Source: Escherichia coli
GTDB lineage: Bacteria > Pseudomonadota > Gammaproteobacteria > Enterobacterales > Enterobacteriaceae
Direction: 5' to 3' (one strand)
NCBI RefSeq assembly: GCF_003334315.1
Contig: NZ_QOWR01000001.1
DNA length: 64,000 nucleotides
Part shown: positions 10,045-14,242 of the stretch, one piece after another
How the letters are laid out: every line of letters begins with the position of its first letter
Position numbering within the stretch: the stretch's first letter is position 1
The notes under the pieces: model-generated
What the model was told of the DNA's origin: nothing
Databases searched by the model: none
The model's input: only the letters and a program-made list of their open reading frames with translations
Position numbers and translations under genes: made by a program

Positions 10045-10171
10045 CCCCCTCCCGGTATGGTTTTTGTGTATAGTCGCTGTTTTGGGCTACCATTGCGCCC
10101 GGTGCGGCTGCTCGCCCATACATTACATTATCATAATGATAAGTTAACATAGTCTGAACATACGGCACCTT

Positions 10172-12085
10172 ATGATTGTTTTCTCCTCGTTACAAATTCG
10201 TCGCGGCGTGCGCGTCCTGCTGGATAATGCCACCGCCACCATCAACCCTGGGCAGAAAGTCGGCCTGGTGGGTAAAAACGGCTGTGGTAAATCTACCCTG
10301 CTGGCATTGCTGAAAAATGAAATCAGCGCCGACGGCGGCAGCTACACCTTTCCGGGAAGCTGGCAACTGGCGTGGGTGAATCAGGAAACGCCGGCGTTAC
10401 CGCAAGCGGCGCTGGAATATGTCATTGACGGCGACCGTGAATATCGTCAACTAGAAGCGCAGCTACACGACGCCAACGAACGTAACGACGGGCACGCCAT
10501 TGCGACCATTCATGGCAAGCTGGATGCTATTGACGCATGGAGTATTCGCTCCCGTGCTGCCAGCCTGCTGCACGGCCTCGGTTTCAGCAATGAACAACTG
10601 GAGCGCCCGGTAAGTGATTTTTCCGGGGGCTGGCGTATGCGTCTTAACCTTGCCCAGGCGCTGATTTGCCGTTCAGACTTGCTGCTGCTCGACGAACCGA
10701 CTAACCACCTCGATCTCGATGCCGTTATCTGGCTGGAAAAATGGCTGAAGAGCTATCAGGGCACGCTGATCCTGATCTCTCACGACCGCGACTTCCTCGA
10801 TCCGATCGTCGATAAAATTATTCATATCGAACAACAAAGCATGTTCGAGTACACCGGCAACTACAGTTCGTTTGAAGTACAGCGCGCCACCCGTCTGGCG
10901 CAGCAACAAGCGATGTACGAAAGCCAGCAGGAACGCGTAGCGCATCTGCAAAGTTATATCGACCGTTTCCGTGCCAAAGCCACCAAAGCGAAGCAGGCCC
11001 AGAGCCGCATTAAGATGCTCGAGCGTATGGAGCTAATTGCCCCCGCGCACGTCGACAACCCGTTCCGCTTTAGCTTCCGCGCGCCGGAAAGCCTGCCAAA
11101 TCCGTTACTGAAGATGGAAAAAGTCAGCGCGGGCTATGGCGATCGCATTATTCTCGACTCGATTAAACTGAACCTGGTGCCCGGCTCGCGTATTGGTCTG
11201 TTAGGCCGCAATGGCGCGGGTAAATCGACATTAATCAAACTGTTAGCCGGTGAACTTGCGCCAGTCAGCGGTGAAATTGGTCTGGCGAAAGGGATCAAAC
11301 TCGGCTACTTCGCCCAGCATCAACTTGAATACCTGCGCGCCGACGAATCACCTATTCAACATCTGGCACGTTTAGCGCCGCAGGAGCTGGAACAAAAACT
11401 GCGTGACTACCTCGGCGGCTTTGGTTTCCAGGGCGATAAAGTAACCGAAGAAACGCGCCGCTTCTCCGGTGGGGAAAAAGCCCGCCTGGTGCTGGCATTA
11501 ATTGTCTGGCAGCGGCCGAATCTGCTGCTGCTCGACGAACCGACTAACCACCTTGACCTCGACATGCGTCAGGCACTCACCGAAGCATTAATCGAGTTTG
11601 AAGGCGCGCTGGTTGTCGTTTCGCACGACCGTCATTTGCTGCGTTCCACCACTGACGATCTCTACCTGGTTCACGATCGTAAAGTCGAACCGTTCGACGG
11701 CGATCTGGAAGATTATCAACAGTGGTTGAGCGACGTACAAAAGCAGGAAAACCAGACCGACGAAGCGCCAAAAGAGAATGCGAACAGCGCCCAGGCACGT
11801 AAAGATCAGAAGCGTCGGGAAGCTGAGCTGCGTGCGCAAACCCAGCCACTGCGTAAAGAGATTGCCCGTCTGGAAAAAGAGATGGAGAAGCTGAACGCGC
11901 AACTGGCGCAGGCGGAAGAGAAACTCGGCGACAGCGAACTGTATGACCAGAGCCGTAAAGCGGAGTTGACCACCTGCCTGCAACAGCAAGCCAGCGCCAA
12001 ATCCGGCCTGGAAGAGTGCGAAATGGCATGGCTGGAAGCCCAGGAGCAGCTTGAGCAGATGCTGCTGGAAGGCCAAAGCAACTGA
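10172..12085 (+). CDS. yheS: ABC-F family ATPase (two tandem ABC domains, no TM domain)
   Basis: 637-aa ORF with two Walker A motifs (GKNGCGKST, GRNGAGKST), two LSGG signatures and a charged coiled-coil C-terminus. Confidence 0.9.
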   Translation: MIVFSSLQIRRGVRVLLDNATATINPGQKVGLVGKNGCGKSTLLALLKNEISADGGSYTFPGSWQLAWVNQETPALPQAALEYVIDGDREYRQLEAQLHDANERNDGHAIATIHGKLDAIDAWSIRSRAASLLHGLGFSNEQLERPVSDFSGGWRMRLNLAQALICRSDLLLLDEPTNHLDLDAVIWLEKWLKSYQGTLILISHDRDFLDPIVDKIIHIEQQSMFEYTGNYSSFEVQRATRLAQQQAMYESQQERVAHLQSYIDRFRAKATKAKQAQSRIKMLERMELIAPAHVDNPFRFSFRAPESLPNPLLKMEKVSAGYGDRIILDSIKLNLVPGSRIGLLGRNGAGKSTLIKLLAGELAPVSGEIGLAKGIKLGYFAQHQLEYLRADESPIQHLARLAPQELEQKLRDYLGGFGFQGDKVTEETRRFSGGEKARLVLALIVWQRPNLLLLDEPTNHLDLDMRQALTEALIEFEGALVVVSHDRHLLRSTTDDLYLVHDRKVEPFDGDLEDYQQWLSDVQKQENQTDEAPKENANSAQARKDQKRREAELRAQTQPLRKEIARLEKEMEKLNAQLAQAEEKLGDSELYDQSRKAELTTCLQQQASAKSGLEECEMAWLEAQEQLEQMLLEGQSN

Positions 12086-13107
12086 TGGCGCAGATAACGA
12101 CGACCGATGCCAATGAATTCAGCAGCAGTGCTGAATTCATCCCCATGCGCGGCTTTAGCAATTGTCATCTGCAAACCATGCTGCCGCGTCTGTTTCGTCG
12201 TCAGGTGAAATTCACCCCGTACTGGCAGCGGCTGGAGTTGCCCGACGGCGATTTTGTCGATCTTGCGTGGAGTGAAAACCCTGCACAGGCGCAACATAAA
12301 CCTCGTCTGGTGGTGTTTCACGGGCTGGAAGGCAGTCTCAACAGCCCTTACGCCCACGGTCTGGTTGAGGCGGCGCAAAAGCGCGGCTGGCTGGGCGTGG
12401 TGATGCATTTTCGCGGATGCAGCGGTGAACCAAACCGTATGCACCGCATTTACCATTCGGGCGAAACCGAAGACGCCAGTTGGTTTTTACGCTGGCTGCA
12501 ACGCGAATTTGGTCATGCGCCAACGGCTGCCGTCGGCTATTCGCTCGGCGGTAATATGCTGGCCTGTTTGCTGGCAAAGGAAGGCAATGATCTCCCGGTT
12601 GATGCGGCGGTGATTGTCTCTGCGCCGTTTATGCTGGAAGCCTGTAGCTATCATATGGAAAAGGGCTTTTCCCGCGTTTATCAGCGTTACTTGCTGAACC
12701 TGTTAAAAGCCAATGCCGCGCGCAAGCTGGCAGCCTACCCCGGAACGCTGCCGATTAATCTCGCGCAGTTAAAATCGGTACGTCGCATCCGTGAATTTGA
12801 CGATCTCATCACCGCCAGAATTCACGGCTACGCCGACGCTATCGACTATTATCGTCAGTGTAGCGCCATGCCGATGCTGAACCGGATCGCCAAACCGACG
12901 CTGATTATTCACGCCAAAGACGATCCGTTTATGGATCATCAGGTGATCCCGAAACCGGAAAGTCTCCCCCCGCAGGTGGAGTATCAACTGACTGAACATG
13001 GCGGTCATGTTGGCTTTATTGGCGGTACATTACTTCATCCGCAAATGTGGCTGGAGTCACGCATTCCTGACTGGTTAACAACGTATCTGGAGGCGAAATC
13101 ATGTTGA
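12085..13107 (+). CDS. yheT: Alpha/beta hydrolase fold protein YheT
   Basis: 340-aa ORF with GYSLGGN nucleophile-elbow motif; 1-nt overlap with yheS stop. Confidence 0.8.
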
Positions 13108-13319
13108 TTCCGTGGCAAGACCTCTCCCCCGAAACTCTGGAAAATTTAATTGAAAGCTTTGTGTTACGTGAAGGCACCGATTATGGTGAACATGAGCGTA
13201 CACTTGAACAGAAAGTCGCCGACGTCAAACGCCAGCTACAGTGCGGAGAAGCGGTGCTGGTATGGTCGGAGCTGCACGAAACGGTCAATATTATGCCGCG
13301 CAGTCAGTTTCGCGAATAA
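13101..13319 (+). CDS. yheU: Small protein YheU
   Basis: 72-aa ORF overlapping yheT end by 7 nt. Confidence 0.75.
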
Positions 13320-13372: not shown

Positions 13373-14242
13373 ATGTCTGCCAAACATCCGGTCATTGCGG
13401 TAACAGGATCCAGCGGCGCGGGGACCACCACCACCAGCCTCGCGTTTCGTAAAATATTCGCGCAGTTAAATCTGCATGCAGCTGAGGTGGAAGGCGACAG
13501 TTTTCACCGTTACACCCGCCCGGAAATGGACATGGCGATCCGCAAAGCGCGCGACGCCGGGCGGCATATCAGCTACTTCGGCCCCGAGGCTAACGACTTC
13601 GGCCTGCTGGAACAAACCTTCATTGAATACGGTCAGAGCGGCAAAGGGAAATCTCGCAAATATCTGCATACCTACGACGAAGCCGTACCGTGGAATCAGG
13701 TACCGGGGACATTCACCCCCTGGCAACCTTTACCGGAACCCACTGATGTACTGTTTTATGAAGGTTTACACGGCGGCGTAGTCACGCCACAGCATAACGT
13801 TGCGCAGCATGTGGACTTACTGGTCGGCGTGGTGCCTATCGTTAACCTTGAGTGGATTCAAAAACTGATCCGCGACACCAGCGAGCGCGGGCACTCACGA
13901 GAAGCAGTGATGGACTCAGTAGTGCGTTCAATGGAAGACTATATCAACTACATCACACCGCAGTTTTCCCGCACCCATCTTAACTTCCAGCGCGTTCCCA
14001 CCGTCGACACTTCAAACCCGTTCGCGGCAAAAGGTATCCCGTCGCTCGATGAAAGCTTTGTGGTGATCCATTTTCGTAATCTGGAAGGGATCGATTTCCC
14101 CTGGCTGCTGGCGATGTTGCAAGGCTCATTCATTTCCCACATCAATACGTTAGTGGTACCGGGCGGCAAAATGGGTCTGGCAATGGAATTAATTATGCTG
14201 CCGCTGGTGCAACGATTGATGGAAGGAAAGAAAATCGAGTAA
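13373..14242 (+). CDS. prkB: Phosphoribulokinase homolog
   Basis: 289-aa ORF with P-loop (AVTGSSGAGTTT). Confidence 0.85.
   Translation: MSAKHPVIAVTGSSGAGTTTTSLAFRKIFAQLNLHAAEVEGDSFHRYTRPEMDMAIRKARDAGRHISYFGPEANDFGLLEQTFIEYGQSGKGKSRKYLHTYDEAVPWNQVPGTFTPWQPLPEPTDVLFYEGLHGGVVTPQHNVAQHVDLLVGVVPIVNLEWIQKLIRDTSERGHSREAVMDSVVRSMEDYINYITPQFSRTHLNFQRVPTVDTSNPFAAKGIPSLDESFVVIHFRNLEGIDFPWLLAMLQGSFISHINTLVVPGGKMGLAMELIMLPLVQRLMEGKKIE

What the first reader, a model, noticed from the sequence alone, without database searches (positions are those of the whole stretch)
10172..12085. YheS, an ABC-F ATPase with a long charged C-terminal extension
Two complete ABC cassettes with no membrane domain, and a Lys/Glu/Gln/Ala-rich coiled-coil tail (from about residue 520). 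ABC-F proteins act on the ribosome; the specific role of this paralog is not obvious from sequence.
Basis: partly seen in the sequence, partly recalled or inferred. Interest (0 to 1): 0.25.

Follow-up and report, generated by a model that had tools for sequence, protein, structure and literature searches.

The report
E. coli yheS, a known ribosome-acting ABC-F ATPase
This is the ordinary Escherichia coli gene yheS, a soluble twin-ATPase translation factor whose ribosome-bound structure and ability to release SecM-stalled ribosomes are already published, so the finding is correct but not new.

Summary
Window 10172..12085 (+) is a 637-aa ORF with two complete ABC cassettes, an ~80-residue helical linker, no membrane segment, and a Lys/Glu/Gln/Ala-rich C-terminal tail that models as an antiparallel two-helix coiled-coil hairpin.

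It is E. coli yheS. The DNA is 99.9% identical to RefSeq genomes and is present in 5426 of 5426 complete E. coli genomes. The protein differs from the K-12-type protein only by A601T.

However, every check it proposed has already been published:
- cryo-EM structures of YheS in the ribosomal E site (PDB 9vvi, 9nlh);
- an alanine scan of the linker;
- growth and translation inhibition by the ATPase-dead EQ2 mutant;
- release of SecM-arrested ribosomes in a purified translation system;
- loss of that activity when the C-terminal tail is deleted.

Two questions remain open in the literature: what the tail does (it is required, yet invisible in both cryo-EM studies), and what the physiological clients are (a yheS deletion has no phenotype and does not change SecM arrest). 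My analyses add only small details.

Verdict: already known, low interest.

The parts
10172..12085 (+). yheS coding sequence (637 codons plus TGA)
   Evidence: ORF list. Megablast 99.9% identity, annotated yheS, present in 5426/5426 E. coli genomes. NF007921 scores 1406.7 bits against a cut-off of 917.
10172..10858 (+). Nucleotide-binding domain 1 (residues 1-229). Contains Walker A (residues 34-41, nt 10271-10294), signature FSGGW (nt 10619-10633) and Walker B plus E175 (nt 10679-10696).
   Evidence: Motif scan. Pfam ABC_tran 17-178, E 2e-23.
10439..10534 (+). Arm subdomain (residues 90-121), the L1-stalk contact
   Evidence: Boundaries from the cryo-EM paper PMC13249984. Helical in the AF2 model, at low to moderate confidence (pLDDT about 56-71).
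10859..11107 (+). [quoted passage not shown]
   Evidence: Pfam ABC_tran_Xtn 217-299, E 1.7e-29. Boundaries from PMC13249984. Net charge +5. Aligns best with the yeast ARB1 linker (E 2.7e-12), then YbiT (5.9e-7).
11108..11749 (+). Nucleotide-binding domain 2 (residues 313-526). Contains Walker A (nt 11204-11227), signature FSGGE (nt 11462-11476) and Walker B plus E456 (nt 11522-11539).
   Evidence: Motif scan. Pfam ABC_tran 328-459, E 1.2e-24.
11750..12082 (+). C-terminal extension (residues 527-637): an acidic spacer followed by a helical hairpin
   Evidence: Not visible in cryo-EM (PMC13249984; bioRxiv 10.1101/2023.06.15.543498). Its deletion abolishes activity (PMC11162784). Pfam ABC_tran_CTD 560-622, E 8.2e-7.
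11777..11932 (+). Tail helix 1 (residues 536-587), basic at its N-terminal half, with heptad repeats at 551-587
   Evidence: AF2 tail model. Heptad score 0.875, reached by 0/500 shuffles. Charge by segment.
11948..12079 (+). Tail helix 2 (residues 593-636), acidic. Carries the only difference from K-12-type YheS (A601T, G>A at nt 11972).
   Evidence: AF2 tail model. Charge. Substitution.
12085..13107 (+). yheT, a soluble alpha/beta-type hydrolase. Its start overlaps the yheS stop (ATGA).
   Evidence: NF008218 scores 647 bits against a cut-off of 267. No TM segment.
13101..13319 (+). yheU, a 72-aa protein of unknown function that overlaps the end of yheT
   Evidence: NF003438 scores 146.6 bits against a cut-off of 86. 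No TM segment.

Best explanation

Shown in the literature for a protein 636/637 identical to this one:
- ATP-bound YheS enters the vacant ribosomal E site.
- Its Arm (residues 90-121) holds the L1 stalk.
- This loosens the contacts of an arrest peptide (SecM) in the exit tunnel.

Proposed by those authors: ATP hydrolysis, in which the two sites are not equivalent, then releases YheS so that elongation resumes.

The C-terminal extension (residues 527-637) is required for arrest-release activity. I infer that it is a flexibly tethered antiparallel coiled-coil hairpin of the Uup-CTD type. Its binding partner on or off the ribosome is unknown.

The SecM activity was demonstrated in vitro and on overexpression. 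The physiological clients are not established.
For: Identity:
- 99.9% DNA identity to RefSeq E. coli genomes, found in all 5426, annotated yheS.
- Single A601T difference from the K-12-type protein.
- NF007921 equivalog 1406.7 bits against a cut-off of 917; ABC-F model NF000355 428.7 against 380.
- PDB chains 9vvi_W and 9nlh_H are YheS.

Architecture:
- Two ABC cassettes, ABC_tran_Xtn linker and ABC_tran_CTD.
- No TM segment and no permease neighbour.

Mechanism, from papers:
- Cryo-EM of EQ2-YheS on the SecM-arrested ribosome, with mutational analysis (PMC13249984).
- SecM arrest release in the PURE system, abolished by linker-helix deletion, by CTE deletion and by E456Q. The EQ2 mutant strengthens the arrest. 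Alanine scan of residues 227-326 (PMC11162784).
- EQ2-YheS inhibits growth and translation (PMC6723617; bioRxiv 10.1101/2023.06.11.543863).

Tail as a hairpin:
- Heptad periodicity.
- AF2 tail model, pLDDT 85.8 and pTM 0.70.
- Foldseek top matches are all antiparallel helical hairpins.
Against: - The physiological relevance of SecM release is doubtful. Deleting yheS did not change SecM arrest, and single knockouts show almost no growth or proteome phenotype (PMC11162784). A yheS deletion has no competitive-fitness defect.
- The role of ATP hydrolysis (release of the arrest versus only dissociation of YheS) is unresolved according to the authors.
- The tail is invisible in both cryo-EM studies. 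Its hairpin fold here rests on a single-sequence AF2 model, a Pfam match at E 8e-7 and heptad statistics, not on a solved structure.
- Foldseek gave no match at E <= 0.001.
Confidence: 0.93

Rival explanations
1. SecM release is a side activity. [quoted passage not shown] It may act together with the co-transcribed YheT hydrolase and YheU. This rival concerns the clients only; the protein is still an E-site ABC-F.
For: - The authors themselves argue that YheS predates SecM in evolution, is normally repressed, and is not fully specialised for SecM, because some linker mutations increase activity (PMC11162784).
- There is no deletion phenotype.
- yheS, yheT and yheU overlap head to tail in the window. 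They are reported as co-transcribed and frequently adjacent in other organisms.
Against: - No alternative client has been identified. YheS had minimal effect on the other arrest peptides tested: TnaC, SpeFL, ApdP and an artificial arrest peptide.
- Nothing links YheT or YheU biochemically to ribosomes; both carry only generic family names.
Confidence: 0.4
2. YheS is an antibiotic-resistance (ARE-type) ABC-F that protects the ribosome from drugs targeting the peptidyl-transferase centre or the exit tunnel.
For: - It shares the architecture of ARE ABC-Fs (linker plus C-terminal extension).
- An overexpression screen listed yheS as giving a 3-fold rise in streptomycin MIC (PMC12924614).
- The quadruple ABCF knockout is more drug-sensitive.
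Against: - Every curated ARE model scores far below its cut-off: Sal 321.5 against 725, OptrA 310.7 against 1450, Msr 263.8 against 680, Vga 260.6 against 725, Lsa 216.5 against 750, CplR 249.4 against 780.
- The single yheS knockout shows minimal change in sensitivity to translation inhibitors.
- No attenuator or leader RNA was found upstream (no Rfam family at gathering score; intergenic gap only 127 nt).
- Streptomycin binds the 30S decoding site, not the region the PtIM reaches (established knowledge).
Confidence: 0.04
3. YheS is the ATPase subunit of a membrane ABC transporter, as the RefSeq product name 'ABC transporter ATP-binding protein' suggests.
For: Only the generic product name and weak sub-threshold matches to transporter ATPase models, which any ABC domain gives.
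Against: - The two fused NBDs have no TM segment (maximum KD19 of 1.22).
- The neighbours YheT, YheU and KefG are soluble. KefB is a K+/H+ antiporter on the opposite strand, not an ABC permease.
- Cryo-EM places YheS in the ribosomal E site.
Confidence: 0.01
4. YheS acts mainly in 50S ribosome assembly rather than in elongation.
For: Expressing YheS in a bipA deletion strain at 18 C causes a strong, specific growth defect (PMC6723617).
Against: - The interaction is a toxicity, not a suppression.
- YheS binds mature 70S complexes carrying P-site tRNA, with higher affinity for elongator-tRNA complexes.
- It acts on programmed 70S ribosomes in the PURE system.
Confidence: 0.07

Closest known systems
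E. coli K-12 YheS (UniProt P63389; PDB 9vvi chain W, 9nlh chain H)
   Same: The same protein: 636 of 637 residues identical, and the same locus (kefG | yheS-yheT-yheU).
   Different: One conservative substitution, A601T, in the acidic second helix of the tail (G>A at window 11972).
Saccharomyces cerevisiae Arb1 and human ABCF1 (eukaryotic ABC-Fs)
   Same: The best non-YheS matches over the whole protein (E 9.5e-97 and 1.1e-93). ARB1 is also the best match for the linker alone (E 2.7e-12). This agrees with the phylogeny that places YheS as the bacterial group closest to eukaryotic ABC-Fs (PMC6723617).
   Different: The match to both ends at about YheS residue 516-518, so it does not extend into the YheS C-terminal hairpin. 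Arb1 was captured on 60S quality-control/biogenesis particles (from memory, not tested here).
E. coli Uup
   Same: An ABC-F with a C-terminal domain of about 100 residues of the same Pfam family (ABC_tran_CTD, PF16326). That domain is likewise invisible in cryo-EM. [quoted passage not shown]
   Different: A different subfamily: the Uup model NF050005 scores 360.7 bits against a cut-off of 900. It has a different client (poly-proline stalls, overlapping EF-P) and promotes rather than disturbs PTC geometry.
EttA and YbiT (the other E. coli ABC-Fs)
   Same: The same E-site binding mode and twin-NBD plus PtIM architecture.
   Different: Neither has a long C-terminal hairpin. Their model scores are far below cut-off (EttA 338.9 against 599; YbiT-type NF011646 363.8 against 762). 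Their clients differ: early-elongation acidic sequences for EttA, poly-basic and poly-acidic sequences for YbiT.
ARE ABC-Fs such as VmlR, LsaA, MsrE
   Same: A linker inserted toward the PTC that shifts the P-tRNA, and a C-terminal extension needed for function.
   Different: They dislodge antibiotics rather than nascent-chain arrests. YheS fails all curated ARE cut-offs, and its linker aligns only weakly with VmlR (E 0.0021).

Membership tests
ABC-F ATPases | Two ABC nucleotide-binding domains fused in one polypeptide, each with Walker A, signature, Walker B plus catalytic Glu, and H-switch | tested here: met
   Motif scan. Pfam ABC_tran twice.
ABC-F ATPases | No transmembrane domain in the protein and no cognate permease gene | tested here: met
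   Maximum KD19 of 1.22 with 0 windows >= 1.6, against KefB as control at 3.04. Neighbours are kefG/kefB (divergent), yheT, yheU and prkB.
ABC-F ATPases | Helical inter-domain linker of about 80 residues (PtIM; Pfam ABC_tran_Xtn) | tested here: met
   PF12848 at residues 217-299, E 1.7e-29. The linker aligns with those of ARB1, YbiT, VmlR and EttA.
ABC-F ATPases | Score above the curated cut-off of the NCBIfam ABC-F model | tested here: met
   NF000355 scores 428.7 bits against a cut-off of 380.
ABC-F ATPases | Binds the ribosomal E site and contacts the P-site tRNA | not testable with these tools
   Shown experimentally for the K-12 protein, which is 636/637 identical: PDB 9vvi and 9nlh, PMC13249984, bioRxiv 10.1101/2023.06.15.543498.
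YheS subfamily | Full-length match above the curated cut-off of the YheS equivalog model | tested here: met
   NF007921 scores 1406.7 bits against a cut-off of 917, covering residues 1-636 of 637.
YheS subfamily | Arm subdomain in NBD1 plus a C-terminal extension of about 110 residues | tested here: met
   Helices at 78-122 in the AF2 model, at low to moderate confidence. Tail 527-637 with ABC_tran_CTD. Boundaries as in PMC13249984.
YheS subfamily | Conserved yheS-yheT-yheU gene order | tested here: met
   Overlapping co-oriented ORFs at 12085-13107 and 13101-13319. Equivalog matches for YheT and YheU.
ARE (antibiotic-resistance) ABC-F | Score above the curated cut-off of any ARE model (Sal, OptrA, Msr, Vga, Lsa, CplR, producer type) | tested here: not met
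   All fall at 20-45% of their cut-offs.
ABC transporter ATPase subunit | Associated transmembrane domain or permease partner | tested here: not met
Uup-type C-terminal coiled-coil domain (Pfam PF16326) | Sequence match to the family profile, and a two-helix antiparallel hairpin | tested here: met
   PF16326 at residues 560-622, i-Evalue 8.2e-7, 29.6 bits. AF2 hairpin with pLDDT 85.8. Heptads. Nucleic-acid binding was not tested.
Valyl-tRNA synthetase C-terminal tRNA-binding arm (Pfam PF10458) | Significant profile match | tested here: inconclusive
   Only 26 residues matched (561-586), i-Evalue 0.036. Murina et al. report E 3.6e-3 in CDD. The seryl-tRNA synthetase arm appears among the non-significant Foldseek hits (rank 44, TM 0.69, E 0.92).

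The most novel reading that the evidence does not exclude
The published SecM-release activity may be incidental. On this reading, the required but structurally invisible C-terminal hairpin (basic first half-helix, acidic second helix) is a mobile arm that recognises a still unknown feature, such as a tRNA, mRNA, a 30S element or a partner protein. That feature would define the true clients of YheS, possibly in a functional module with the co-transcribed YheT hydrolase and YheU. My evidence does not exclude this, but it also provides nothing positive beyond the operon structure and the charge asymmetry of the hairpin.
Probability: 0.3. Interest if true: 0.4.

Novelty: already known. Interest (0 to 1): 0.08.

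Why it matters
As a scan result it matters little. The gene, its family, its ribosome-bound structure and an in vitro function are all published, and the window's copy differs by one residue.

The only live questions belong to the field rather than to this window. One is what the C-terminal hairpin binds. The other is which stalled ribosomes YheS serves in the cell. Answering them would help explain why bacteria keep several ABC-F paralogs.

A practical point: the RefSeq product name 'ABC transporter ATP-binding protein' is misleading for this gene.

Tried and rejected
- Full-length AlphaFold2 without an alignment gave an unusable model (mean pLDDT 43.2, pTM 0.25). Only the tail was confident, so I re-modelled the tail alone.
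- Foldseek of the tail against the PDB gave 644 weak matches and none at E <= 0.001. All were generic helical hairpins (HlyD, LSD1 tower, SMC/Rad50 arms, seryl-tRNA synthetase). The fold therefore says 'antiparallel coiled coil' and nothing more specific.
- phmmer of the tail against PDB sequences found only YheS itself, plus insignificant keratin/GCN4-type coiled coils.
- The consensus promoter scan found no + strand sigma-70-like site upstream of yheS, and the number of sites did not exceed that in shuffles, so it is uninformative.
- Rfam found no family at gathering score anywhere in the window, so there is no evidence for an attenuator leader.
- The 40-nt direct repeat inside the gene was considered as a possible sign of something unusual. 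It is simply the identical Walker B/D-loop peptide of the two cassettes.
- I deliberately did not spend the large database searches (homolog search, representative search, metagenome or genome scans), because identity and function were settled by cheaper evidence.

Full report
**1. Observation**

The ORF list shows a single long ORF at exactly 10172..12085 on the + strand (ATG to TGA, 637 aa). The ATG is the first possible start after the preceding in-frame stop.

A motif scan finds two complete ABC cassettes:
- Walker A at residues 34-41 and 345-352;
- signature FSGGW at 150 and FSGGE at 431;
- LLLLDE (Walker B plus catalytic Glu) at 170-175 and 451-456;
- the H-switch histidines at 204 and 485.

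Pfam gives ABC_tran at 17-178 and 328-459, ABC_tran_Xtn at 217-299 (E 1.7e-29) and ABC_tran_CTD at 560-622 (E 8.2e-7).

There is no membrane segment. The highest 19-residue Kyte-Doolittle mean is 1.22. The adjacent KefB, used as a positive control, reaches 3.04 with 93 windows above 1.6.

The tail (520-637) is 52.5% K+E+Q+A against 25.4% for the body.

The coiled-coil claim holds on three lines of evidence:
- The strongest heptad a/d periodicity in the whole protein is at residues 551-587. None of 500 shuffles of residues 540-637 reaches it.
- AlphaFold2 of residues 530-637 alone gives pLDDT 85.8 and pTM 0.70, with helices at 536-587 and 593-636 joined by a five-residue loop.
- The best Foldseek matches are antiparallel two-helix hairpins, none significant.

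Two refinements apply. Residues 520-535 are an acidic non-helical spacer. The tail is net acidic (-8), with a basic N-terminal half of helix 1 (+4) and an acidic helix 2 (-5).

**2. Identity**

The 2.2-kb query around the ORF matches all 5426 complete E. coli genomes at 95-99.9% identity, and the feature under the match is annotated yheS.

The first 32 kb of the window aligns collinearly with the E. coli tufA-to-frlC stretch at 99.6% identity. From the reference annotation, the window should span tufA to envZ. The second half was not aligned directly.

The protein equals the K-12-type YheS except for A601T (G>A at 11972).

NCBIfam places it in the YheS equivalog NF007921 (1406.7 bits, cut-off 917) and in the ABC-F model NF000355 (428.7, cut-off 380). 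The models for Uup, EttA, YbiT-type and all antibiotic-resistance ABC-Fs fall far below their cut-offs.

The PDB holds two YheS chains, 9vvi_W and 9nlh_H.

**3. Context**

yheS is divergent from kefG-kefB across a 127-nt gap.

Downstream, yheT (a soluble hydrolase) starts on the yheS stop codon (ATGA), and yheU overlaps the end of yheT.

None of YheS, YheT or YheU has a predicted transmembrane segment, and no ABC permease or binding-protein gene is nearby.

No Rfam family reaches gathering score anywhere in the window, so there is no sign of a leader RNA of the kind that regulates many resistance ABC-Fs.

**4. What it does**

This comes from the literature, for an essentially identical protein.

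Murina et al. 2019 (PMC6723617) defined the YheS subfamily. They predicted coiled coils in its Arm, linker and C-terminal domain, and noted weak similarity of the C-terminal domain to the tRNA-binding arm of valyl-tRNA synthetase. They also showed that ATPase-dead EQ2-YheS inhibits protein synthesis, and found a genetic interaction with bipA.

Chadani et al. 2024 (PMC11162784) showed that purified YheS releases SecM-arrested ribosomes in the PURE system, even after the arrest has formed and independently of the signal sequence. Further results from that paper:
- Deleting the linker helix, or the C-terminal extension, abolishes the activity.
- E456Q abolishes it, while the first-site mutant retains a little.
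- EQ2 strengthens the arrest.
- An alanine scan of residues 227-326 identifies the helix-tip residues (R265, F266, K272) and structural phenylalanines.

Iso et al. 2026 (PMC13249984) solved a 2.8 A structure of EQ2-YheS on the SecM-arrested ribosome:
- YheS sits in the E site.
- The Arm (90-121) lies on the L1 stalk.
- The PtIM (230-312) reaches toward the PTC.
- A76 of the P-tRNA shifts by 2.2 A.
- The density for the SecM chain in the tunnel is lost.
- Residues 527-637 are invisible.

The Columbia/Hunt-lab preprints report an independent YheS/70S initiation-complex structure. In it the ~100-residue C-terminal domain is also not seen. They further report low affinity for initiator-tRNA complexes but high affinity for elongator-tRNA complexes, no fitness defect of a yheS deletion, and co-transcription of yheS-yheT-yheU.

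**5. My own linker comparison**

The YheS linker aligns best with yeast ARB1 (E 2.7e-12), then E. coli YbiT (5.9e-7). It aligns only weakly with VmlR (0.0021) and EttA (0.0029 for the M. tuberculosis protein; 0.36 for the E. coli one). This is consistent with the published placement of YheS next to the eukaryotic ABC-Fs.

**6. What remains open**

Two things, both acknowledged in the papers.

(a) The function of the C-terminal hairpin. It is needed for activity but unseen on the ribosome.

(b) The physiological clients. Deleting yheS does not alter SecM arrest or growth, expression is said to be normally repressed, and YheS homologs predate SecM.

An overexpression screen reports a 3-fold rise in streptomycin MIC. 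That is weak evidence and mechanistically unexpected for an E-site/PTC factor.

The most novel reading not excluded is that the hairpin is a mobile recognition arm for still unknown clients, possibly linked to YheT and YheU. I give this about 0.3 probability and moderate interest.

**7. Verdict**

The object is already known in detail. The window's copy is an ordinary allele with one conservative substitution in the tail. Interest is low.

Noticed in passing
window 10680-10719 and 11523-11562: A 40-nt direct repeat inside yheS, 38/40 identical and 843 nt apart, encodes the identical LLLLDEPTNHLDLD (Walker B plus D-loop) of both cassettes. The two copies share non-preferred codons (CTC three times, ACT): 10 of 14 codons are the same inside the block, against 20 of 53 for identical residues elsewhere in the two domains. 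The repeat probably explains the 'median 2 places per genome' in the megablast. It could reflect intragenic conversion or chance.
   Followed up: partly
window 11972: The single difference from K-12-type YheS is G>A, giving A601T in the acidic second helix of the tail. It is probably a neutral strain polymorphism.
   Followed up: partly
window 12082-12088 and 13101-13107: The yheS stop overlaps the yheT start (ATGA), and yheT overlaps yheU by 7 nt, which suggests translational coupling in a yheSTU operon. YheT is a soluble hydrolase of unknown substrate, and YheU is a 72-aa protein of unknown function. No functional link to the ABC-F is known.
   Followed up: partly
window 10131-10171: No recognisable Shine-Dalgarno sequence precedes the yheS ATG (...ACATACGGCACCTTATG). 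The consensus scan found no + strand sigma-70-like promoter in the 127-nt kefG-yheS gap. This fits the reported low expression of yheS.
   Followed up: no
window 13373-14242: prkB (phosphoribulokinase homolog) is an intact 289-aa ORF in the window. It is annotated as a frameshifted pseudogene in the reference strain ER1709 used for comparison.
   Followed up: no
window 10172-12085 (annotation): RefSeq/PGAP names this gene 'ABC transporter ATP-binding protein', and the NCBIfam equivalog NF007921 carries the same generic name. This persists despite published ribosome-bound structures; the name is misleading.
   Followed up: yes
window 1-64000: No Rfam family reaches its gathering score anywhere in the 64-kb window.
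   Followed up: no
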